32,000 bases of DNA from Mycolicibacterium smegmatis (GCF_001457595.1 NZ_LN831039.1:3690001-3722000), one strand, 5' to 3'. Counted from the first letter of the stretch, positions 10,067 to 22,816 are shown. Program-made: numbers and translations. Notes: generated from the sequence alone by a model not told the origin.

Positions 10067-12253
10067 ATGACAACAATCTCGGAGCCGACCATTTCGGGCG
10101 AATCGGCCACACAATCACGAATGCCGCGACGGCGCATGCTGTCCCGGATCAGCATCCAGTCCAAATTGCTGGCGATGTTGTTGGTCACCAGCGTGCTGTC
10201 CGCGGCTGTGGTCGGCTTCATCGGCTACCAGTCGGGCCGAAGCTCCCTGCGCGACTCCGTTTTCGACCGGCTCACCGAAATCCGTACGGCGCAGGCGCGG
10301 CAACTGGAAACGCAGTTCCGGAGTTTCCGCAATTCGCTGGTGATCTATACGCGGGGTACGACGGCGATCGAGGCCTCCCGGGCGTTCACCGCGGGTTTCG
10401 ACGAATTGGGCGACGCGACCATCAGCCCGGCCCAGCAGAAGGCGCTCACCGACTGGTACGAGAATCAGTTCTCGGCGACCACGGAGCATTCCGACACCGC
10501 CGACAAATTGGACGACAACGAGGTCGATGTCGAGGCGCTGCTGCCGTCGTCCAATTCGCAGAAATACCTGCAGGCGTTCTACACCGCGCCGTTCACCGAC
10601 TGGGACAGATCGATCGAGAACGACGACGCGGGAGACGGCAGCCGCTGGTCGGCGGCCAACGCGGTCTTCAACGGGTTCTTCCGCGAGATCGTGACACGCT
10701 CCGGCTTCGACGACGCGCTGCTGCTCGACACCAGGGGCAACGTCGTCTACACCGCGTACAAGGGCTCCGACCTGGGGACCAACATCTACACCGGCCCGTA
10801 CAAGGGCGGTGAACTGTCCGAGGCCTACCGGGAAGCCCTCAACTCGAACTCCGTGGACTATGTCGCCGTCACGGACTTCGGCATCTACCAACCGTCCGGT
10901 ACGCCGACCGCGTGGATGGTGTCGCCGATCGGCGGCGGCGGTCGTATCGAGGGCGTGCTGGCGCTGCAGTTCCCCATCAGCGTCGTCAACCAGTTGATGA
11001 CCATGGACGGCAAGTGGGAAGAGTCCGGGCTCGGCGAGACCGGTGAAACCTACCTCGTCGGACCCGACGGGCTCATGCGGTCGGATTCGCGGCTGTTCCT
11101 GGAGAACCCGGAGCAGTTCAAGGCCGACGTGGTCGAGGCCGGCACGCCTCCGGGTGTCGCCGAGCAGTCGATCCTGCACGGTGGTACCACTCTGGTGCAG
11201 CCGGTCAGCGACGAGGCGTCCAAGCTTGCCGGCCAGGGACAATCGGGCTCGATCATCGAACGCGACTATCTGGGGCAGGAGACCCTGCAGGCCTACGCCC
11301 CGCTGGACCTGACCGGACTGGACTGGTCGGTGGTGGCCAAGATCGACACCGCCGAAGCGTTCGCCCCGGTCACCAAGTTCACGCGCACCCTGGTGCTCTC
11401 GACCGTGGCGATGATCTTCGCGGTGTGCATCGCCGCGATCCTGCTGGCCCGCGTATTCGTCCGGCCCATCAGGCGTCTGGAGGCCGGCGCCCAGCAGATC
11501 AGCGCGGGCGACTACGGCGTCGCGCTGCCGGTGGTGTCCCGCGACGAATTCGGTGACCTGACAGTGGCGTTCAACGAGATGAGCCGCAACCTGCGCATCA
11601 AGGAGGACCTGCTCGACGAGCAACGCAAGGAGAACGACCGCCTGCTGCTGTCGTTGATGCCCGAGCCGGTGGTACAGCGGTACCGTGAGGGCGAGGAGAC
11701 CATCGCACAGGACCACCAGAACGTCACGGTGCTGTTCGCCGACCTCATGGGCCTCGACCGCCTGTCGGCGAGCATGAGTTCCGACGAGCACCTGGCGATC
11801 GTCAACAAGCTCGTGCGCCAGTTCGACGCGGCCGCCGAGAGCCTCGGTGTCGAACGGGTGCGGACACTGCACAACGGATACCTGGCCAGCTGCGGCCTGA
11901 CCGTTCCCCGGCTCGACAACGTGCGCCGCACAGTCGATTTCGCGTTCGAGATGCAGCGCATCGTCGACCGCTTCCGCGGCGAGACCGGGTACGACCTGCG
12001 GTTGCGGGCAGGCATCGACACCGGCACGGTCAGCAGCGGTCTGGTGGGCCGGTCGAGCCTGGCCTACGACATGTGGGGCGCCGCGGTCGACCTCGCCTAT
12101 CAGGTGCAGCGCGGTATGCCGCAGCCCGGCGTGTACGTCACCGATCAGGTGCACGACGCCATACGCGATATCCGCCAGTTCACCGCGGTCGGGTCGGTGA
12201 CCGTCGACGGCACCGAGCGACCGATCTGGCGGCTGTCGGAGCGCCAGTCATGA
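10067..12253 (+). CDS. membrane receptor with periplasmic Cache-like domain, HAMP domain and a class III adenylate/guanylate cyclase homology domain (catalytic residues degenerate)
   Basis: N-terminal TM (LLAMLLVTSVLSAAVVGFIGY); extracytoplasmic domain of about 330 aa with Cache-like segments (GNVVYTAYKGSDLGTN, GETGETYLVGPDGLMRSDSRL); second TM; HAMP (RPIRRLEAGAQQISAGDYGVALPVVSRDEFGDLTVAFNEMSRNL); CHD (VTVLFADLMGLD...ERVRTLHNGYLASCGL...RAGIDTGTVSSGLVG...YDMWGAAVDLAYQVQ). Confidence 0.85.
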   Translation: MTTISEPTISGESATQSRMPRRRMLSRISIQSKLLAMLLVTSVLSAAVVGFIGYQSGRSSLRDSVFDRLTEIRTAQARQLETQFRSFRNSLVIYTRGTTAIEASRAFTAGFDELGDATISPAQQKALTDWYENQFSATTEHSDTADKLDDNEVDVEALLPSSNSQKYLQAFYTAPFTDWDRSIENDDAGDGSRWSAANAVFNGFFREIVTRSGFDDALLLDTRGNVVYTAYKGSDLGTNIYTGPYKGGELSEAYREALNSNSVDYVAVTDFGIYQPSGTPTAWMVSPIGGGGRIEGVLALQFPISVVNQLMTMDGKWEESGLGETGETYLVGPDGLMRSDSRLFLENPEQFKADVVEAGTPPGVAEQSILHGGTTLVQPVSDEASKLAGQGQSGSIIERDYLGQETLQAYAPLDLTGLDWSVVAKIDTAEAFAPVTKFTRTLVLSTVAMIFAVCIAAILLARVFVRPIRRLEAGAQQISAGDYGVALPVVSRDEFGDLTVAFNEMSRNLRIKEDLLDEQRKENDRLLLSLMPEPVVQRYREGEETIAQDHQNVTVLFADLMGLDRLSASMSSDEHLAIVNKLVRQFDAAAESLGVERVRTLHNGYLASCGLTVPRLDNVRRTVDFAFEMQRIVDRFRGETGYDLRLRAGIDTGTVSSGLVGRSSLAYDMWGAAVDLAYQVQRGMPQPGVYVTDQVHDAIRDIRQFTAVGSVTVDGTERPIWRLSERQS

Positions 12254-13644
12254 GAAGCGTCCTCGAGGCCAACTGGTTCTACTGGGCGCTGAGCGTGGCC
12301 GTCGGGCTGCCGATCGGCCTGGTGCTGCTCACCGAACTGCACAACACCCTGGCCCGCCACGGCAGCTATCTGGCGCGGCCGGTCAGCCTGCTGCGCAACT
12401 ACATCCTGCCGCTCGCAGCGCTGCTGATCCTGCTCGTCAAGGGCAGTGAGATCTCCGCAGAGGCCACGCCGGTGCGGATCGTGGCGACCGGGTTCGGTTT
12501 CGTCGTCATCATCCTGCTGCTGTCGGGGCTCAACGCCACGCTGTTCCAGGGCGCCCCGGAAGGCAGCTGGCGCAAGCGGATCCCGTCGATCTTCCTCGAC
12601 GTGGCGCGCTTCGCGCTGATCGCCGTCGGCGTCGGCATGATCATGGCGTACGTGTGGGGCGCCAACGTGGGCGGCCTGTTCACCGCGCTGGGCGTCACGT
12701 CCATCGTGTTGGGCCTTGCGCTGCAGAACGCCGTCGGCCAGATCATCTCGGGCCTGCTGTTGTTGTTCGAGCAGCCCTTCCAGCTCGGCGACTGGCTCGA
12801 CACGCCGTCGGCACGCGGCCGCGTGGTCGAGGTCAACTGGCGCGCAACGCACATCGACACCGGCGGCGGGCTTCAGATCATGCCCAACTCGGTGCTCGCG
12901 GGCGCATCGTTCACCAACCTGAGCCGCCCGGAAGCCGCGCACTCCCTCTCGGTCACCACCACATTCGGGGCGTCGGATTCACCGGATACGGTGTGCGCGT
13001 TGCTCACCCGTGTCGCCACGCAGCTGCCGCAACGCCGCGCCGGTGCGGCACCCAAGGCGATTCCCCTTGGTGCCGGCGAGTACAAGACGTCGATCCCGCT
13101 GCGTACGCCCGCCGACGACTCGGCCGCACGTGCGGTGTTCGTGCGCTGGCTCTGGTATGCCGCTCGCCGCGCCGAACTGCACCTCGACGGGGAGACCGAC
13201 GATTTCAGCACGCCAGAACGGCTCACCAAGGCCGTCCGGCAGATGGCGCCCACGCTACGGCTGAGCCACACCGAACAGCAGGAGGTGCTCAACCATTCGG
13301 CACTGGTCCGGTTCGGTGCCGACGAGATCATCCAGGAGGCCGGCGAGATCCCGACTCGCATGAGCTTCATCGTCTCGGGCCGGGTCGGGGTGAGCGTGGC
13401 CGGCGACGGCGACGCCGTCATCCCGGTCCGCACGCTGACCGAGAACGACTTCCTGGGGCAGACCGCCTTGACCAGGGAGGGGGCCCTCGCCTCCGCGCAT
13501 GCACTGACCGAGACCACCGTGCTGCAGATCAGCCGGGAGTTCCTGGAGGAACTGGTGGCAGGCAATCCCCTGCTGCTGCTCGAGCTGAGCCGGATCATCG
13601 ACGACCGGCGCAGTGCGGCGCGCGAGGCGCTCACCGCGGACTGA
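12250..13644 (+). CDS. MscS-family mechanosensitive channel fused to a C-terminal cyclic-nucleotide-binding-like domain (bCNG-type architecture)
   Basis: The ATG at 12250 overlaps the cyclase stop (ATGA); the 12073 start in the track is an Arg-rich extension. MscS TM3/beta-domain signature GLFTALGVTSIVLGLALQNAVGQIISGLLLLFEQPFQLGDWL...GRVVEVNWRATHI. C-terminal CNB-like beta-roll (RFGADEIIQEAGEIPTRMSFIVSGRVGV...NDFLGQTAL...). Confidence 0.85.
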   Translation: MRSVLEANWFYWALSVAVGLPIGLVLLTELHNTLARHGSYLARPVSLLRNYILPLAALLILLVKGSEISAEATPVRIVATGFGFVVIILLLSGLNATLFQGAPEGSWRKRIPSIFLDVARFALIAVGVGMIMAYVWGANVGGLFTALGVTSIVLGLALQNAVGQIISGLLLLFEQPFQLGDWLDTPSARGRVVEVNWRATHIDTGGGLQIMPNSVLAGASFTNLSRPEAAHSLSVTTTFGASDSPDTVCALLTRVATQLPQRRAGAAPKAIPLGAGEYKTSIPLRTPADDSAARAVFVRWLWYAARRAELHLDGETDDFSTPERLTKAVRQMAPTLRLSHTEQQEVLNHSALVRFGADEIIQEAGEIPTRMSFIVSGRVGVSVAGDGDAVIPVRTLTENDFLGQTALTREGALASAHALTETTVLQISREFLEELVAGNPLLLLELSRIIDDRRSAAREALTAD

Positions 13645-13670
13645 CTTCTCGGAGTTCGTCTCCGGCGTCG

Positions 13671-13693
13671 CCTCCCGGTGTGTCACCGGGAGG
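13671..13693 (+). terminator. intrinsic-terminator-like hairpin (CCTCCCGGTG-TGT-CACCGGGAGG)
   Basis: Perfect 10-bp stem with a 3-nt loop, 27 nt after the stop at 13644. Followed by the direct repeat GTCTCGACG x2. Confidence 0.6.
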
Positions 13694-13770
13694 TCTCGAC
13701 GTTGTCTCGACGCTGATTCGCAATCGTTGCCCAACCGCGATCCGCCCCACCGGCGTTGTTACGCGTGTGA

Positions 13771-14862
<1,092 letters not shown>

Positions 14863-14924: not shown

Positions 14925-15686
14925 TCACCCCTGCACGGTGGGCCGGATGGTGAGATCGCCGATCTCGACGTCGTGCGGTTGCTCGATGGCGAACGCGATC
15001 GCACGGGCCACCGCGTCCGGGGACAGGCCGATGCGGTCCATCGTGGCGCGGGCCGCGTTTGCGTCGGGATCGCCGGGCGGGCCGCCGAGTTCGGTGCGCA
15101 CGTAGCCCGGTGAGATGGACGTGGTCCGGACGACGCCGTCGGTCGATTCCTGACGCAGCGCCTCCATGATCGTGCGCACCGCATTCTTGGTGCCCGCGTA
15201 CACCCCCATCTCCGGCACGATCTTGAGTCCGGCCGTCGAGACCACCGTGACGACATGACCGCGTCCCTGGCGCTCGAAGACCGGTGTGGCCGCGGCAATC
15301 CCGTGCAGTACCCCGCGCACGTTCACATCGATCACCGCCGACCACGTGTCGGTGTCGCCGTCGGCGAGGGGACCCAGCGTGGCAATGCCTGCATTGTTGA
15401 CCAGGACGTCGAGCCTGCCGAACTCGCGCACCGCGGTGGCGACGAGGTTGTCGACGTCGGCGCGCCGGGTGACGTCGACCGCGACCGCGACCGCGGCCCC
15501 GCCGGTTGAGCGGATCTCCTCGACGATGCGGTCCAGCCGGTCGGTGCGCCGCGCACCCAGCACCACCGACGCTCCGCGCGCCGCCAGCAGGCGCGCGGTC
15601 GCCTCACCGATTCCACTGCTCGCGCCGGTGATCGTGACGACCTGCCCGGCGACGCTGTCTTCGTGTGCGTGTTCGTGTGCGCTCAT
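14925..15686 (-). CDS. classical short-chain dehydrogenase/reductase (SDR)
   Basis: ATG at 15686 (MSAHEHAHEDSVAGQVVTITGASSGIGEATA). Motifs TGxxxGIG, NNAG, YAGTK. The 15839 start in the track would run into the lon promoter region. Confidence 0.85.
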   Translation of the reverse strand: MSAHEHAHEDSVAGQVVTITGASSGIGEATARLLAARGASVVLGARRTDRLDRIVEEIRSTGGAAVAVAVDVTRRADVDNLVATAVREFGRLDVLVNNAGIATLGPLADGDTDTWSAVIDVNVRGVLHGIAAATPVFERQGRGHVVTVVSTAGLKIVPEMGVYAGTKNAVRTIMEALRQESTDGVVRTTSISPGYVRTELGGPPGDPDANAARATMDRIGLSPDAVARAIAFAIEQPHDVEIGDLTIRPTVQG

Positions 15687-15792
15687 GGCAGCTACGAGCC
15701 TCCAGCAGCATGCGTCTATTCCCCGGACTGTCGCTCTCAGCGAAATCGCCGAGCGGCCCATGCCGGTGGGGAACAAACCACCGGCCCCCAGA

Positions 15793-15813
15793 GTTGAGTG
15801 CATCAGACTGAAG
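15793..15813. promoter_or_regulatory. HAIR-like (HspR-associated inverted repeat) box, GTTGAGT-N7-ACTGAAG
   Basis: Each arm matches 6/7 of the consensus CTTGAGT-N7-ACTCAAG, with the correct 7-nt spacer. It lies 12 nt upstream of the lon ATG and abuts the GGAGGA RBS (15817-15822). Confidence 0.5.
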
Positions 15814-15825
15814 TTTGGAGGACTG

Positions 15826-18165
<2,340 letters not shown>

Positions 18166-19463: not shown

Positions 19464-22325
19464 TTACCGGTCGGTCATGATGCGCCGCGACGGCCCAGGG
19501 CGGGCGAAGCGGTCAGGCGTCCGCAGCGGGCGTTGCCGGATGAAGGTGGGCCACCAGAACCACGGGCCGAGTAGGCGCAGCAGACACGGCACCACGAGCG
19601 AGCGCACGATCATGGTGTCCAGCAGCAGGCCGATGCACACCGTGGAGCCGAGCTGGCCGACCGCGGCCAGATTGCTGGCGAGCATCGACAACATGGTGAA
19701 CGCGAACACAAGACCGGCCGATGTCACCACCGCGCCGGTGCTGCCCAACGCGCGAATGAGCGCGGTGTTGAGCCCCGCGCCGCTCTCCTCCTTCACGCGG
19801 GAGATCAGCAGCAGGTTGTAGTCGGACCCGACGGCGACCAGGATGATGAACGCCAACGGCAGCACGAGCCAGTGCAGTGGAAGCCCGATCAGGTGCTGCC
19901 ACACCAGAACTGACAGCCCAAAGGCCCCGGCGAACGAAAATGTCACGGTGCCGGGTATGACCATGGCGGCCACCAGGCTTCGCGTGAGGTACAGCATGAT
20001 GAGGAAGATCAGCACGAACGCCGCGATCGCGACGATCAGAAGATCTGACGCGGCATAGTCCTGGATGTCTTTCGTGCTCGACGCGGCGCCGCCCAGATAC
20101 ACCTTGGCGCCGGCCAGCGACGTTTCCTTCAGCGCCATCTTGATGGCGTCGGGGATCTGCTCGACGTGTTCGATGCCTTCCTGCGCCATGGCGTTGCCCT
20201 CGTGGGTGATGATGAACCGGGCGGCCTTGCCGTCCGGTGACATCAGCAGCTTCATCCCGGTCTTGACGTCGTCGTTGTCGAACGCCTCGTGAGGGATGTA
20301 GAAGAAGTCGTCGCTGCGTGCCGCATCGAAGTCGTTGCCCACGTTGATCAGGTCGTCGTACGTCTGATCGGTCTGGGTGGACTGCAGATGAGCCGAGCCG
20401 TAGTTGTTCTGGAGCAGGCTCAAGGTTGCTTTGCCGGCAATCTTCATCTGCTCGAGTTGCGTGATCATCTGCGGCAGCAGGCGATCGATGGCCTCGAAAG
20501 ACTCGACAGCGTTGCCGATCTGCTCATCAAGGCGATCGATGCCGTCGAGCGAGTCGAACAACGAACGTATCGCGAAACACACGGGAATGTCGAAACAGTG
20601 CGGTTCCCAGTAGAAGTAGTTCTTGAGCGGCCGCAGGAAGTCGTCGAGATCGGAGATGCCCTCGTTGACCTCGTCGGTCACCTCCTTGAGGTTCTCGAAT
20701 GTCACCGTTGTGGCGTGCAATTCGTCGGACATCTGTGTGGTGATGCTGATGACCTGTTGGATGACCTGCAGCGAATGCGCCTGGATGTCGGCCTGCCTGT
20801 CGGTGTTCTCGTTCAGTTGTTGGTCGAACGGCAGTTGCTGGCCGTTGGTGCTGCCCTGGGTGGTGAACAGGTAGGGAATGGTCGCGTGCTCCAGTGGCCG
20901 GCCCAGTGGTCTGGTGATGCTCTGCACCATGGCCACACCGGGAAGCCGGATGAGGGATTTCGCCGCCCGGTCCAGGGAGATGAAGTCCGCCGAGTTGCGC
21001 ATATCGTGGTCGGATTCGACCATCAACAACTCCGACATGAGCTTGCTCTGGGGAAAGTGCCGATCGGCGGCCTCGAAACCGAGTTTGGCCGGGGCATCGG
21101 CAGGCTGGTACGCACGGTCGTCATAGCCGACCTGATAGGTCGGGACGAACACCGCGCCGACGAGGACGACAACCGCACTCGCCACGAAAACCGGTTTGGG
21201 CCAGCGCACCACGCTCGTGGCGATATGACGGTAGAGCCGGCCGCTGTTCAAGCGGCGCGGATCGAAGAGCCCGCGGCGACTGCCCAACGTGAGCAGGGCC
21301 GGCGCGAGCGTCAACGCCGCGGCGATCGTGCAAAGCATGCTGACCGCCACCGCCGGTCCCATGGTGTGGAAGTAGTCCAGGCGAGCCAGACTCAGACAGA
21401 AGCACGCCCCGGCGATGGTCAGGCCCGAGCCGATGATGATCGGAGCCACGCTGCGGTAGGCCGTGAAGTAGGCCTCTTCGCGGGATTCGCCCGCGCGGCG
21501 CGCCTCCTGATAACGGCCCAGCATGAAGATGCCGTAATCCGTCCCGGCGCCCAGCGTCAATGCCACCAATAGGTTGACCGCGAACGACGACAAGGGAATG
21601 ACCCCGAGGTGGCCCAGGACCGCGACAACGCCTTTGGCGGCGAGCAATTCGATGAGCACGGCGGGCAGGGGCACGAGCAGGCTCGGCACCGAGCGGTACA
21701 CCAGCAGGAGCATCGCGACGATCAGGATGATCGTCAGGATCGTGATGTTCTTGAGGCTCGCGGTGGCAATCGTCAAGGTGTCCGATGCCAGAGGCGCGGG
21801 CCCGCTGACATACACCTTGAGACCGGGAGGCGGCGCGTCGGCGGCGACGATGTCGCGTACCGCGTCCACGGACTCGTTGGCCTCGAGTTTTCCGGTGTTG
21901 CCTGCCAGCCGCAGCATCACGAACGCGGCCTTGCCATCCACACTTTGGACCGCGGCAGCCGTGATGGGCTCACCCCACAGGTCCATCACGTACTGCACGT
22001 GTGCGGGGTCGGACTGTAGGCGGCGGACCAGATCGTCGTAGAACCGGTGATCTGCGTCGTCGAGAGGCCGGTCGGCCTCGAGGACCAGCATGGTCAGGTT
22101 GGTCGAGTCGGATTCGCCGAATTTCTCGCCCATCTGGAGCAGCGCCACCTGCGACGGCGCATACGTCGGGATCATCGGACCGGCGAGTTCGTCGGCCACC
22201 TTCTCGGCCTGCGGAACGAAGATGTTGGTACCGATCGTGACGAGTATCCAGAACGCGACGATCGGCAGCGCCAGGACGCGTACGGCACGCGCGAAGAACG
22301 GCCGGCCCGCGCGGTGTGCGCTCAT
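19464..22325 (-). CDS. mmpL: MmpL family RND transporter (MmpL4/MmpL5-like, with periplasmic coiled-coil insertion)
   Basis: The ATG at 22325 overlaps the mmpS stop (ATGA). N-terminus MSAHRAGRPFFARAVRVLALPIVAFWILVTIG..., 12-TM RND layout. The pattern DHRFYDDLVRRLQSDPAHVQYVMDLWGEPITAAAVQSVDGKAAFVMLRLAGN parallels my memory of M. tuberculosis MmpL5. 953 aa. Confidence 0.9.
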   Translation of the reverse strand: MSAHRAGRPFFARAVRVLALPIVAFWILVTIGTNIFVPQAEKVADELAGPMIPTYAPSQVALLQMGEKFGESDSTNLTMLVLEADRPLDDADHRFYDDLVRRLQSDPAHVQYVMDLWGEPITAAAVQSVDGKAAFVMLRLAGNTGKLEANESVDAVRDIVAADAPPPGLKVYVSGPAPLASDTLTIATASLKNITILTIILIVAMLLLVYRSVPSLLVPLPAVLIELLAAKGVVAVLGHLGVIPLSSFAVNLLVALTLGAGTDYGIFMLGRYQEARRAGESREEAYFTAYRSVAPIIIGSGLTIAGACFCLSLARLDYFHTMGPAVAVSMLCTIAAALTLAPALLTLGSRRGLFDPRRLNSGRLYRHIATSVVRWPKPVFVASAVVVLVGAVFVPTYQVGYDDRAYQPADAPAKLGFEAADRHFPQSKLMSELLMVESDHDMRNSADFISLDRAAKSLIRLPGVAMVQSITRPLGRPLEHATIPYLFTTQGSTNGQQLPFDQQLNENTDRQADIQAHSLQVIQQVISITTQMSDELHATTVTFENLKEVTDEVNEGISDLDDFLRPLKNYFYWEPHCFDIPVCFAIRSLFDSLDGIDRLDEQIGNAVESFEAIDRLLPQMITQLEQMKIAGKATLSLLQNNYGSAHLQSTQTDQTYDDLINVGNDFDAARSDDFFYIPHEAFDNDDVKTGMKLLMSPDGKAARFIITHEGNAMAQEGIEHVEQIPDAIKMALKETSLAGAKVYLGGAASSTKDIQDYAASDLLIVAIAAFVLIFLIMLYLTRSLVAAMVIPGTVTFSFAGAFGLSVLVWQHLIGLPLHWLVLPLAFIILVAVGSDYNLLLISRVKEESGAGLNTALIRALGSTGAVVTSAGLVFAFTMLSMLASNLAAVGQLGSTVCIGLLLDTMIVRSLVVPCLLRLLGPWFWWPTFIRQRPLRTPDRFARPGPSRRIMTDR

Positions 22326-22816
22326 GCCGACTTGACCCGGCATGTGACGTCGGCATTGGCATGTGACGACGAATGTTCGTCGCGCACACGGTCGTTCACG
22401 AGTATCCGGCACCCCACCTCGCCGCCCTTGACCTGCCCGGAGATACTGCCGGACACCACGGTGAGCGTCGTGGTCTCGGTGTGCGACCACGGCAACTCGG
22501 CGATGTCGACCCGGTGCGGGTGACCGTCGACGTCGACATAGGTCAGCAGTCCGCCGCTTCCGGGGGACCCGAACAACTCGTAGGTCATGCGCTTGGGAGT
22601 GAACTGCTCAGGCGCCTGCGCCGCGAGCACCGAGACAACCGGTCCAGGAGCGGACATCTCGTGCACCTTCCACACCGCCACAGACCCGACGCCGACGGCG
22701 ATGGCGGTTACGGCAGGCAACCAGCCTCTCTGCAGGGTTTTCGGCACGACAGCGCGCCGCACGCTCCGGCGGTCACCTGCCTCGCGCGCATGTTGGTCAG
22801 TCGCCACTAGGGTCAT
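22322..22816 (-). CDS. mmpS: MmpS family membrane accessory protein
   Basis: 164 aa. A single TM (WLPAVTAIAVGVGSVAVW) followed by a beta-rich domain (TYELFGSPGSGGLLTYVDVDGHPHRVDIAELPWSHTET...VGCRILVNDRV). Translationally coupled to mmpL. Confidence 0.85.
   Translation of the reverse strand: MTLVATDQHAREAGDRRSVRRAVVPKTLQRGWLPAVTAIAVGVGSVAVWKVHEMSAPGPVVSVLAAQAPEQFTPKRMTYELFGSPGSGGLLTYVDVDGHPHRVDIAELPWSHTETTTLTVVSGSISGQVKGGEVGCRILVNDRVRDEHSSSHANADVTCRVKSA

What the first reader, a model, noticed from the sequence alone, without database searches (positions are those of the whole stretch)
10067..13644. Cache-HAMP cyclase-homology receptor coupled (ATGA overlap) to an MscS channel with a cNMP-like domain, where both the catalytic residues and the cNMP-binding residues look degenerate
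Seen in sequence: the two ORFs overlap by 4 nt (ATGA at 12250-12253), so they are very likely co-translated. Aligning the cyclase homology domain by eye to the six canonical class III residues gives the following. The first metal Asp is present (FADL). The second metal Asp, exactly 44 residues later, is Asn (RTLHNGY versus KTIGDxY). The substrate Lys is Arg. The substrate Asp is present (YDMWG). The transition-state Asn (+7) is Asp and the Arg (+11) is Gln (AAVDLAYQVQ versus DTVNxAxRME). In the downstream channel, the phosphate-binding cassette reads FLGQTAL...ALASAHA where canonical CNB domains have FGE.AL...RSATVxA, so the ribose-contacting Glu is Gln and the phosphate-binding Arg is Ala. 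Established knowledge: homodimeric class III cyclases need all six residues in each chain, and the PBC Glu and Arg are the hallmark of cAMP/cGMP binding. MscS-CNB fusions (bCNG channels) are known. Inference: either this is a pseudo-cyclase receptor that signals to the channel by direct protein contact, or the pair uses a non-canonical nucleotide or ligand. Parallel loss of the canonical residues in both partners is an unusual pattern.
Basis: partly seen in the sequence, partly recalled or inferred. Interest (0 to 1): 0.65.

Follow-up and report, generated by a model that had tools for sequence, protein, structure and literature searches.

The report
Dead-cyclase receptor paired with MscS channel
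A membrane sensor whose cyclase domain has lost key catalytic residues is always encoded next to, and overlapping, an MscS-type channel whose cyclic-nucleotide pocket is also broken, which suggests the sensor may gate the channel without canonical cAMP signalling.

Summary
ORF1 (10067-12253) is a dCache-HAMP-class III cyclase-homology protein. Its six catalytic positions read D-R-N-D-D-Q instead of D-K-D-D-N-R. ORF2 (12250-13644) overlaps it by ATGA and is an MscS channel with a C-terminal CNB domain that lacks the ribose-contacting Glu and the phosphate-binding Arg.

The window is Mycolicibacterium smegmatis. The pair is MSMEG_3578 plus its neighbour, published as the orthologue of M. tuberculosis Rv2435c (its neighbour there would be Rv2434c), so the genes are known.

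What I did not find described:
- All 80 related actinobacterial loci keep the same two-gene order, and 68 of 78 intact junctions overlap.
- No locus has a complete metal-binding pair, the substrate Lys, or a canonical CNB Glu/Arg.
- Both "broken" domains are under purifying selection (dN/dS 0.16 and 0.23).
- Homologous pairs exist in cyanobacteria, with mostly intact cyclases and a Glu-retaining CNB.
- Four fully canonical relatives of the cyclase stand alone.

Best reading (about 45%): a ligand-sensing pseudo-cyclase receptor controls the channel directly through the CNB-homology domain. Residual or non-canonical nucleotide signalling is not excluded. This is a new variant of the cyclase/bCNG kind.

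The parts
10067..12253 (+). Receptor gene (MSMEG_3578 / Rv2435c orthologue): N-terminal TM helix, extracytoplasmic dCache_1, TM2, HAMP, signalling helix (CTE-like), class III cyclase-homology domain. An alternative start lies at 10121.
   Evidence: ORF list. Pfam hits. 120 orthologues at >=71% identity. The published MSMEG_3578 primer matches 11796-11815 with 2 mismatches (PMC3961136).
10676..11338 (+). dCache_1 sensor domain (residues 204-424) inside the roughly 380-aa extracytoplasmic region. The ligand is unknown.
   Evidence: PF02743, E=5e-17. No solved close relative by sequence. dN/dS 0.20.
11441..11704 (+). HAMP domain (459-510) plus the helical linker LLLSLMPEPVVQRY (513-546) that precedes the cyclase-homology domain. 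These are the two most constrained segments of the receptor protein.
   Evidence: PF00672, E=3e-16, and a weak HNOBA hit at 502-538. dN/dS 0.115 for TM2+HAMP (436-512) and 0.112 for the linker (513-546).
11705..12214 (+). Cyclase-homology domain (547-716) with a degenerate catalytic set. Codons: D559 (11741-11743), D564 in place of the GF[T/S] Thr (11756-11758), R599 (11861-11863), N603 (11873-11875), D668 (12068-12070), D675 (12089-12091), Q679 (12101-12103).
   Evidence: PF00211, E=7e-29. Alignments to AC9/AC8 C1 and C2. Conservation in orthologues. dN/dS 0.16.
12238..12253 (+). Coupling junction: GGAG (12238-12241) inside the end of ORF1, then the ATGA stop/start overlap (12250-12253).
   Evidence: Sequence. 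The junction overlaps by 4 nt in 49 related loci, by 1 nt in 14 and by 8 nt in 5; gaps of at most 20 nt in 10.
12250..13644 (+). MscS-like channel gene with a C-terminal CNB-homology domain (bCNG architecture). Presumably the Rv2434c orthologue.
   Evidence: Pfam. NCBIfam MscS matches. 100% identical to the annotated M. smegmatis 'mechanosensitive ion channel domain-containing protein'. AF2 model plus Foldseek hits to MscS/YnaI and to CRP/GlxR/SthK CNB domains.
12601..12927 (+). MscS pore helix (TM3) and beta-domain (residues 118-226). The LGLALQ...PF..GD signature is intact.
   Evidence: PF21088 at 118-159 (weak) and PF00924 at 161-226. Invariant columns in 40 orthologues. dN/dS 0.15.
13306..13560 (+). 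CNB-homology domain (353-437). The phosphate-binding cassette lies at 13450-13503 (F401-A418: FLGQTALTREGALASAHA). Glu is replaced by Q404, there is no Arg at the canonical place, and R409 is conserved.
   Evidence: PF00027, E=1e-13. CAP alignment. Profile alignment to PKG. Orthologue tables. dN/dS 0.23.
13671..13693 (+). Perfect 10-bp GC-rich hairpin with a 3-nt loop, 27 nt after the channel stop codon and with no T-run. Probably the operon end.
   Evidence: Sequence. RNA fold of 13645-13720: -37.4 kcal/mol, z = -4.0, and 0 of 200 shuffles fold as well.

Best explanation
This is a bicistronic, translationally coupled signalling module.

Gene 1 encodes a dimeric transmembrane receptor. An extracytoplasmic dCache domain binds an unknown ligand. 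The signal passes through TM2, the HAMP domain and the helical linker to a class III cyclase-homology domain. That domain still folds and still switches conformation. In the mycobacterial lineage it most likely no longer makes cAMP or cGMP, or makes it only very poorly.

Gene 2 encodes an MscS-type channel, expected to be a heptamer. Its cytoplasmic vestibule carries a CNB-homology domain that has lost the canonical cyclic-nucleotide contacts.

The most likely mechanism is that the CNB-homology domain reads the state of the receptor's pseudo-cyclase domain directly, by protein-protein contact. An extracellular chemical cue would then bias opening of the MscS pore (ion or osmolyte flux) without a diffusible second messenger.

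What is shown: domain architecture, residue substitutions, operon structure, deep conservation of the pairing, and purifying selection on both degenerate domains.

What is inferred: catalytic inactivity, lack of cNMP binding, physical contact, and the effect on gating.
For: 1. Residues. The second metal Asp is Asn, Lys is Arg, Asn is Asp and Arg is Gln. The Thr/Ser of the GF[T/S] phosphate loop is Asp or Glu in 79 of 80 related sequences.
2. Family-wide pattern. In 79 readable related loci the second metal position is never Asp, except in L041, which has lost the first Asp instead. That position varies freely among N, S, Q, E, H, G and A, as expected if metal binding is no longer selected. The Lys position is never Lys.
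3. CNB pocket. The Glu position is Q, L, V, S, I, G, T or P and never Glu. No Arg is found at the canonical position. A profile alignment puts that Arg in a one-residue deletion.
4. Not decay. dN/dS is 0.16 for the CHD, 0.23 for the CNB, 0.20 for dCache and about 0.11 for HAMP and the linker. MSMEG_3578 is transcribed in all conditions tested (PMC3961136).
5. Obligate partnership. In 80 of 80 loci, from Mycobacteriaceae, Microbacteriaceae, Promicromonospora and an Acidimicrobiia MAG at 45-76% identity, the channel lies immediately downstream on the same strand. 68 of 78 intact junctions overlap. Some genomes carry two pairs, duplicated as pairs (L031; L005/L067; L060/L073).
6. Cross-phylum comparison. 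Cyanobacterial homologues of both genes are also adjacent. Four fully canonical dCache-HAMP cyclases have no channel within 4 kb. Fully canonical hexads are found in 1 of 6 paired and 4 of 4 unpaired loci (Fisher p=0.048).
7. Precedent. KCNH channels use a cNMP-blind CNB-homology domain as a docking surface for a PAS sensor domain (PMC7515569, PMC3787778).
Against: - No biochemical or interaction data exist for this pair, and AlphaFold-Multimer was not available.
- Asn can still ligate Mg/Mn weakly. Some family members have Glu at that position together with Asn and Arg (D-R-E-D-N-R in Subtercola, Leifsonia and L058), so residual catalysis in parts of the family is plausible.
- In cyanobacterial pairs the cyclase is nearly or fully canonical (Scytonema D-K-D-D-N-R) while the CNB already lacks the Arg. 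That fits an ancestral module that used cAMP bound in a non-canonical way, which might persist here.
- A conserved Arg (R409, in the 'LTR[EQ]' motif) sits in the PBC helix and might substitute for the lost Arg.
- A 2-fold receptor dimer has to engage a 7-fold channel, which is a symmetry mismatch.
- The domain-level mirror-tree analysis gave only a weak CHD-CNB partial correlation (0.16).
- The Fisher test rests on 10 loci that are not phylogenetically independent.
Confidence: 0.45

Rival explanations
1. The module still uses a nucleotide messenger, but non-canonically. The CHD keeps a low or unusual cyclase activity, or another nucleotidyl-transfer activity. The CNB domain binds that product, or cAMP made by other mycobacterial cyclases, or a non-cyclic ligand such as a nucleoside. 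It would use a remodelled pocket, for example the conserved R409.
For: - The substrate-side Asp668 and the YDxWG motif are almost invariant, and most orthologues keep the transition-state Asn.
- Some relatives read D-R-E-D-N-R or D-R-N-D-N-R.
- Cyanobacterial partners have near-canonical cyclases together with a CNB that keeps Glu but lacks Arg. The family may therefore never have needed that Arg.
- bCNG channels are named and described as cyclic-nucleotide-gated in the literature (PMC13591265, citing Caldwell 2010).
- Foldseek lists the T. brucei cAMP-independent PKA regulatory subunit among the CNB matches. From my own knowledge, its Arg-less pocket binds nucleosides.
- Purifying selection on the CNB domain fits a ligand-binding role equally well.
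Against: - The second metal position varies freely (N/S/Q/E/H/G/A), which is not how a catalytic ligand behaves.
- An acidic residue sits in the triphosphate-binding loop in 79 of 80 sequences.
- The PBC Glu position is occupied by chemically unrelated residues (Q, L, V, S, I, G, T, P). That argues against one conserved ribose contact.
- Homodimeric class III cyclases need all six residues in each chain (established knowledge).
Confidence: 0.27
2. The CHD is a regulatory half-site. It heterodimerises with another, canonical mycobacterial class III cyclase, for example a HAMP cyclase such as MSMEG_4924, as a C1- or C2-like partner. In this way it would modulate cAMP synthesis in response to the dCache ligand. 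The channel would be an independent cAMP effector or a mere neighbour.
For: - Class III active sites form across the dimer interface, and mammalian ACs are C1/C2 pseudo-heterodimers (established knowledge; both halves appear in the alignments).
- In the wider dCache-HAMP-CHD family many representatives look C1-like or C2-like, for example xK[ED]DNR or DKDD with Asn/Arg lost.
- M. smegmatis has about ten annotated cyclases (PMC3961136).
Against: - This protein is defective on both sides: the metal pair on one, and Lys/Asn/Arg on the other. It cannot supply a complete half-site.
- A TM-HAMP receptor is expected to homodimerise.
- The hypothesis does not explain the invariant, overlapping pairing with the channel in 80 of 80 genomes, or its CNB degeneration.
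- No partner gene is conserved in the neighbourhood.
Confidence: 0.1
3. Nothing special is going on. These are two decaying or functionally unrelated neighbours, and the residue changes are neutral drift or alignment artefacts.
For: Degenerate CHDs are common in bacteria. Only 9 of about 140 family representatives keep D-K-D-D-N-R.
Against: - The alignments have no gaps at the motifs.
- dN/dS is 0.16-0.23.
- Gene order and overlap are conserved across families of Actinomycetota and into cyanobacteria.
- Both ORFs are intact. The two apparent exceptions (L062, L064) are frameshifted draft assemblies.
Confidence: 0.05

Closest known systems
M. tuberculosis Rv2435c (and its neighbour Rv2434c) / M. 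smegmatis MSMEG_3578
   Same: Orthologous genes. PMC3961136 (Table 2) pairs MSMEG_3578 with Rv2435. Its MSMEG_3578 primer matches the window with 2 mismatches. The window channel is 100% identical to an M. smegmatis protein. Rv2435c is described as a dCache-containing, 'mammalian-type' class III cyclase (PMC4822843, PMC3961136).
   Different: Essentially nothing; this is the same locus in a close strain. In the papers I could read, the gene is treated as one of the adenylate cyclases of the cAMP network. Its catalytic defects, the CNB defects of the neighbour and the conserved coupling are not discussed. The 2004 survey PMC2447327 names Rv2435c 10 times and Rv2434c 3 times, but its body text was not readable here.
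bCNG channels (MscS channel + C-terminal cNMP-binding domain; Caldwell et al. 2010, cited in PMC13591265)
   Same: Same architecture. Pfam gives MS_channel_2nd + cNMP_binding. The cyanobacterial partner channels found here are full-length homologues of the window channel, at 28-30% identity and E down to 1e-77.
   Different: The window channel lacks both the PBC Glu and the PBC Arg. The cyanobacterial relatives sampled keep the Glu but also lack the Arg. The review describes bCNG as mostly cyanobacterial, with no structure and no known physiological role. I did not find the obligate upstream dCache-HAMP-CHD partner described.
Canonical class IIIa membrane cyclases (Rv1625c/Cya, mammalian AC C1/C2)
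   Same: Same CHD fold and the same helical transducer before it. Best PDB sequence matches are AC9, AC8, AC5 and Rv1625c, at E 1e-32 to 1e-21.
   Different: Three to four of the six catalytic residues are replaced, and there is an acidic residue in the phosphate loop. The sensor is a two-TM dCache + HAMP rather than a 6-TM anchor.
KCNH (EAG/ERG/ELK) channels: CNB-homology domain docked to a PAS sensor domain
   Same: A resemblance in mechanism only. An ion channel carries a CNB-like domain that does not bind cyclic nucleotides. It serves as an interface for a sensor domain that tunes gating (PMC7515569, PMC3787778, PMC5881448).
   Different: Unrelated channel family (voltage-gated K+ against MscS). 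Sensor and CNBHD are in one polypeptide. An intrinsic-ligand strand fills the pocket; no such element has been shown here.
Trypanosoma brucei cAMP-independent PKA regulatory subunit
   Same: A CNB fold whose PBC lacks the Arg. It appears among the Foldseek matches (entry 6h4g). From my own knowledge, it binds purine nucleosides instead of cAMP.
   Different: A soluble kinase regulator with tandem CNB domains. There is no evidence that the window protein binds nucleosides.

Membership tests
Class III nucleotidyl cyclase (PF00211) | Cyclase-homology fold and sequence profile | tested here: met
   PF00211 E=7e-29 over residues 547-716. phmmer hits to AC9/AC8/AC5/Rv1625c at E 1e-32 to 1e-21.
Class III nucleotidyl cyclase (PF00211) | Two metal-binding Asp residues | tested here: not met
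   D559 is present. The second is N603. It is Asn in 121 of 121 close orthologues. It is never Asp in 78 of 79 related loci.
Class III nucleotidyl cyclase (PF00211) | Substrate-defining Lys and Asp (AC) or Glu and Cys (GC) | tested here: not met
   R599 and D668. The Lys position is always R, H or N in the family, never K or E.
Class III nucleotidyl cyclase (PF00211) | Transition-state Asn and Arg | tested here: not met
   D675 and Q679 in the window. Among close orthologues the Asn position is N in 76 and D in 44, and the Arg position is Q in 107, H in 9 and R in 5.
Class III nucleotidyl cyclase (PF00211) | Cyclase activity | not testable with these tools
   Needs an enzyme assay or cya complementation.
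bCNG (MscS-CNB) channels | MscS pore helix and beta-domain followed by a C-terminal CNB domain | tested here: met
   PF00924 3e-17 and PF00027 1e-13. AF2/Foldseek hits to MscS/YnaI and CRP/SthK. Full-length homology to the cyanobacterial MscS-CNB partner channels found here.
bCNG (MscS-CNB) channels | Canonical phosphate-binding cassette (FGE...R[ST]A) able to bind cNMP | tested here: not met
   Q404 replaces Glu, and there is no Arg at 411-418. Neither Glu nor Arg is seen in 120 orthologues or in 78 loci.
bCNG (MscS-CNB) channels | Gating by cyclic nucleotide | not testable with these tools
   Needs electrophysiology or flux assays.
dCache_1 / HAMP transmembrane receptors | Two TM helices flanking a double-Cache domain, followed by a cytoplasmic HAMP | tested here: met
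   PF02743 5e-17 and PF00672 3e-16. Hydrophobic segments at about residues 33-55 and 436-458, read from the translation.
Translationally coupled operon | Stop/start overlap conserved among orthologues | tested here: met
   ATGA at 12250-12253. In 78 intact junctions the overlaps are 4 nt in 49, 1 nt in 14 and 8 nt in 5.
KCNH-type CNB-homology domain (works-like comparison only) | Pocket filled by an intrinsic ligand, and direct docking of a sensor domain | not tested
   Model coordinates could not be inspected and no multimer prediction was available.

The most novel reading that the evidence does not exclude
The module is a two-polypeptide, chemically gated MscS channel. A dCache receptor uses a catalytically dead cyclase-homology dimer purely as a conformational output. 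That output docks on the channel's cNMP-blind CNB-homology domains and opens or closes the pore. This would be an evolutionary short-circuit of an ancestral 'receptor cyclase, then cAMP, then bCNG channel' pathway. That ancestral pathway still appears to exist in cyanobacteria. The second messenger would have been replaced by direct contact.
Probability: 0.35. Interest if true: 0.8.

Novelty: new variant of a known kind. Interest (0 to 1): 0.6.

Why it matters
Rv2435c is routinely counted among the adenylate cyclases of M. tuberculosis. Rv2434c, from my own knowledge, is counted among its cNMP-binding proteins. If both are blind to cAMP chemistry, the mycobacterial cAMP network needs re-annotating.

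More broadly, bCNG-type MscS channels have no known physiological role or gating mechanism (PMC13591265). An obligate upstream dCache-HAMP-CHD partner gives them a testable input: an extracellular ligand.

The graded series is a natural experiment in how a second-messenger pathway can collapse into a direct receptor-channel complex, and in how pseudo-enzymes keep a signalling role:
- canonical stand-alone cyclases;
- cyanobacterial pairs with mostly intact cyclases;
- actinobacterial pairs with both sites degenerate.

It also offers a possible route to ligand-controlled ion or osmolyte release in Actinomycetota.

Tried and rejected
1. Gene fusion as evidence for contact. Leifsonia aquatica L064 looked like one ORF spanning cyclase and channel. 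Inspection showed a frameshift near the cyclase 3' end, with the normal 8-nt overlapping GTG start behind it. It is not a fusion. L062 is a multiply frameshifted MAG.
2. Solved relative of the dCache domain, to guess the ligand. There is none by sequence. No RxWY-type amino-acid motif was seen by eye.
3. Mirror-tree and partial correlation between domains. The CHD-CNB partial r of 0.16 is only marginally above other cross-protein pairs. Inconclusive.
4. Literature.
- The body of the 2004 actinobacterial cyclase survey (PMC2447327) is indexed but not readable here.
- McCue 2000, Caldwell 2010 and a guessed review id are not held.
- Searches for pseudo-cyclase terms, and for MscS plus mycobacteria plus CNB, found nothing relevant.
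5. Wider sampling of cyanobacterial and canonical relatives. The metagenome scan failed and its cap was consumed. Three contig look-ups were lost to machine errors. The canonical-versus-paired comparison therefore rests on 10 loci.
6. The first 16-sequence alignment was too diverse for the locus search and was replaced by a closer one.
8. The promoter and terminator consensus scan gave nothing meaningful in this GC-rich DNA.

Full report
**1. What is there**

The window holds two same-strand ORFs. ORF1 runs 10067-12253 (728 aa). ORF2 starts at ATG 12250 and ends at 13644 (464 aa). The overlap is ATGA at 12250-12253. A GGAG lies 8 nt upstream of the ORF2 start.

Pfam gives these domains:
- ORF1: dCache_1 (204-424), HAMP (459-510), Guanylate_cyc (547-716, E=7e-29).
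- ORF2: the MscS beta-domain (161-226, with a weak TM2/3 hit at 118-159) and cNMP_binding (353-437, E=1e-13).

NCBIfam gives only domain-level matches, to HAMP in kinases, to MscS and to CRP.

A perfect 10-bp GC hairpin follows the channel stop at 13671-13693. It folds at -37.4 kcal/mol with z = -4.0.

The flanking genes are unrelated:
- upstream: a deaminase, an alpha-amylase-family enzyme, and DUF1810 on the minus strand;
- downstream: a mycolyltransferase-like esterase, an SDR, Lon, a luciferase-like oxidoreductase and MmpL.

The pair therefore looks like a self-contained bicistronic unit.

**2. Checking the residue calls**

HMMER alignments of the CHD to AC9 and AC8 C1 and C2 domains have no gaps around the motifs:

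| Canonical role | Canonical motif | Window motif | Window residue |
|---|---|---|---|
| Metal Asp 1 | FAD | FADL | D559 (kept) |
| Substrate Lys | K at -4 of metal Asp 2 | R at that position | R599 |
| Metal Asp 2 | TLGDCY | TLHNGY | N603 (+44 from D559) |
| Substrate Asp | YDIWG | YDMWG | D668 (kept) |
| Transition-state Asn | GDTVNIASR | GAAVDLAYQ | D675 (+7) |
| Transition-state Arg | same motif | same motif | Q679 (+11) |

In the channel, alignment to CAP gives Glu72 as Q404 and Arg82 as A414. A profile of 19 family CNB domains aligned to PKG CNB-B puts the canonical Arg in a one-residue deletion. Either way there is no basic residue at 411-418.

An AF2 model of the channel has mean pLDDT 70, and 80-90 over the cytoplasmic half. 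Foldseek matches it to MscS and YnaI, and to the CNB domains of CRP, GlxR, SthK and PKG.

**3. Identity**

The channel is 100% identical to an M. smegmatis protein. The published RT-PCR primer for MSMEG_3578 matches the CHD at 11796-11815 with two mismatches. PMC3961136 lists MSMEG_3578 as the orthologue of Rv2435 and reports it transcribed under all conditions tested. PMC4822843 names Rv2435c as a dCache-containing cyclase.

So this is the M. smegmatis counterpart of Rv2435c and, presumably, Rv2434c. The genes are known and are annotated generically as 'adenylate/guanylate cyclase domain-containing protein' and 'mechanosensitive ion channel domain-containing protein'.

**4. The degeneracy is old and maintained**

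Among 120 close orthologues of each protein:
- D559, R599, N603 and D668 are invariant.
- The Asn position is N in 76 and D in 44.
- The Arg position is Q in 107, H in 9 and R in 5.
- The PBC Glu position is Q in 113, S in 6 and H in 2.
- The Arg position is A, T, S or G, never R.

A genome scan returned 80 loci at 45-76% identity. They come from Mycobacteriaceae, Microbacteriaceae (Subtercola, Leifsonia, Clavibacter, Curtobacterium, Microbacterium), Promicromonospora and an Acidimicrobiia MAG. Representatives also map to Mycobacteroides abscessus, Rhodoglobus, Isoptericola, Nocardioidaceae and Micrococcaceae.

Across these loci:
- The second metal position is N, S, Q, E, H, G or A. It is Asp only in L041, which has lost the first Asp.
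- The Lys position is never Lys.
- The Thr/Ser of the GF[T/S] phosphate loop is Asp or Glu in 79 of 80.
- In the channels the Glu position is Q, L, V, S, I, G, T or P, and no canonical Arg occurs.

Both domains are nevertheless under purifying selection. Median dN/dS is 0.16 for the CHD, 0.23 for the CNB, 0.20 for dCache, about 0.11 for HAMP and the linker, and 0.15 for the MscS core. dS is about 0.9, close to saturation, so these values are approximate.

The window's N-to-D and R-to-Q changes are lineage variants. The family hallmarks are loss of the second Asp, Lys-to-Arg, and the acidic phosphate-loop residue.

**5. The pairing is obligate**

In all 80 loci a full-length channel homologue lies immediately downstream on the same strand. 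Of the 78 intact junctions, 49 overlap by 4 nt, 14 by 1 nt and 5 by 8 nt. The remaining 10 have gaps of 1-20 nt.

The two outliers are assembly frameshifts, not fusions or losses.

Duplications copy the pair as a unit. L031 has it in tandem, and two separate pairs occur in each of two MAGs (L005/L067 and L060/L073).

**6. Beyond Actinomycetota**

The nearest fully canonical relatives of the receptor (about 35% identity, full length) are cyanobacterial and planctomycete dCache-HAMP cyclases.

Context look-ups gave six paired and four unpaired loci.

- **Paired.** Planktothrix, Leptolyngbyaceae JSC-12, Synechocystis LKSZ1, an unnamed 5.3-Mb genome, Scytonema and Moorena all have an MscS-CNB gene directly downstream. 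These channels are full-length homologues of the window channel, at 28-30% identity and E down to 1e-77.
- **Paired cyclase residues.** Five read D-K-D-D-N followed by A, I, D, K or R. Synechocystis reads E-K-D-D-N-A. Only Scytonema is fully canonical.
- **Partner CNB residues.** The five partner channels read in full have FFGEMALF.G.PS.VS, so the Glu is kept and the Arg is absent.
- **Unpaired.** Four fully canonical relatives (..NxASRMES) have no MscS or CNB gene within 4 kb.

The canonical hexad is found in 1 of 6 paired and 4 of 4 unpaired loci (Fisher p=0.048). The sample is small and not phylogenetically independent.

This suggests an ancient receptor-cyclase plus bCNG-channel module. 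Its cyclase is relaxed at the catalytic Arg in cyanobacteria. In Actinomycetota it is additionally stripped of a metal ligand and the Lys, while the channel loses its Glu.

**7. Mechanism**

- **Input path.** The signal path into the CHD (dCache, TM2, HAMP, the LLLSLMPEPV helix) is the most conserved part of the receptor. The CHD dimer is therefore still being driven.
- **Likely output.** The chemistry needed to make cAMP, and the contacts needed to bind it, are both missing. The only invariant partner is the channel. The simplest account is that the channel's CNB-homology domain reads the pseudo-cyclase conformation directly. KCNH channels provide a precedent: a cNMP-blind CNB-homology domain docks a PAS sensor domain and tunes gating (PMC7515569, PMC3787778). 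I put this at about 0.45.
- **Main rival (about 0.27).** Residual or non-canonical nucleotide chemistry. Asn or Glu might still hold a metal. Asp668, and in most orthologues the Asn, are kept. R409 is conserved in the PBC helix. The cyanobacterial CNBs already lack the Arg, and Arg-less CNB domains can bind other ligands (the T. brucei PKA-R appears).
- **Heteromeric half-site (about 0.1).** This fails to explain the channel coupling.
- **Neutral decay (about 0.05).** The selection and synteny data contradict it.

**8. Novelty**

The genes and architectures are known: Rv2435c/Rv2434c and bCNG. The accessible literature treats Rv2435c as a cyclase of the cAMP network. It describes bCNG channels as mostly cyanobacterial, without a structure or a known role.

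I found no description of the following:
- the obligate dCache-HAMP-CHD partner;
- the clade-wide double degeneracy under purifying selection;
- the graded series across phyla.

Key older papers (Shenoy 2004 body text, McCue 2000, Caldwell 2010) could not be read. They may already note the adjacency and some of the substitutions.

I rate this a new variant of a known kind, with interest 0.6.

Noticed in passing
P0241-P0390 (representatives of the wider dCache-HAMP-CHD family): Only 9 of about 140 alignable 50%-cluster representatives keep the canonical D-K-D-D-N-R hexad. Many look C2-like (first Asp lost, K-[ED]-D-N-R kept) or C1-like (D-K-D-D kept, Asn/Arg lost). This hints at widespread pseudo-cyclases or heterodimeric halves in this receptor family. 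It rests on an automatic MAFFT alignment and was only spot-checked by motif search.
   Followed up: partly
window 11756-11758 (D564): The Thr/Ser of the F-x-D-x-x-G-F-[TS] triphosphate-binding loop is Asp here, and Asp or Glu in 79 of 80 related actinobacterial loci.
   Followed up: yes
window 13474-13476 (R409 of the channel): An Arg in a conserved 'LTR[EQ]' motif inside the phosphate-binding-cassette helix, five residues after the lost Glu. It is invariant in 40 orthologues. It could be a substitute ligand contact or an interface residue.
   Followed up: partly
L031 6001-9515 and 9636-13090; L041 2108-5733 and 8485-10278; L005/L067; L060/L073: Some genomes carry two copies of the receptor-channel pair. 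They are in tandem in Mycobacterium simulans. M. palauense has a second receptor copy. Two MAGs each have two separate loci. The unit is duplicated as a pair. The first M. palauense receptor (L041) reads N-R-D-D-N-R, the only one that keeps the second metal Asp.
   Followed up: partly
L064 7950-8130 (Leifsonia aquatica DSM 20146) and L062 6300-7000: An apparent cyclase-channel fusion ORF in L064 is caused by a frameshift near the cyclase 3' end. L062 (a MAG) has several frameshifts in the receptor gene. These are probably assembly errors, or possibly pseudogenes.
   Followed up: yes
L089 1-10148 (Scytonema hofmannii FACHB-248): The one fully canonical cyclase that is paired with a channel sits next to three notable genes: a large NO-synthase/EF-hand/FAD-binding multidomain gene, a bestrophin-like channel gene and a globin-pentapeptide gene. 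This may be a gas or ion signalling neighbourhood.
   Followed up: no
window 10067 versus 10121: The start of the receptor gene is ambiguous. ATG 10067 gives 728 aa and has no obvious Shine-Dalgarno sequence. ATG 10121 gives 710 aa, the length of the 97%-identical homologue P0001. Annotated homologues range from 686 to 722 aa.
   Followed up: partly
window 10115-12154 (-), 12145-12942 (-), 12654-14120 (+) and others: Long ORFs on the opposite strand or in other frames overlap both genes, for example 679 aa on the minus strand. They are the usual by-product of high G+C content, and I did not treat them as genes.
   Followed up: no
window 13783-14862, 15286-18165, 19464-22490 (-): The downstream neighbours are an antigen-85/mycolyltransferase-like esterase (PF00756), a Lon protease whose real start is probably well downstream of the listed GTG, and an MmpL transporter. 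None is conserved next to the pair in the window's relatives as far as I looked.
   Followed up: partly
MSMEG_3578 D113G (literature, PMC10066036): A phage-resistant M. smegmatis isolate (LM15) carries D113G in MSMEG_3578, in the extracytoplasmic region. It also carries mutations in lsr2 and in an ABC permease. The authors did not characterise LM15 further; they attribute resistance to lsr2, based on another isolate whose only change is an lsr2 disruption.
   Followed up: no
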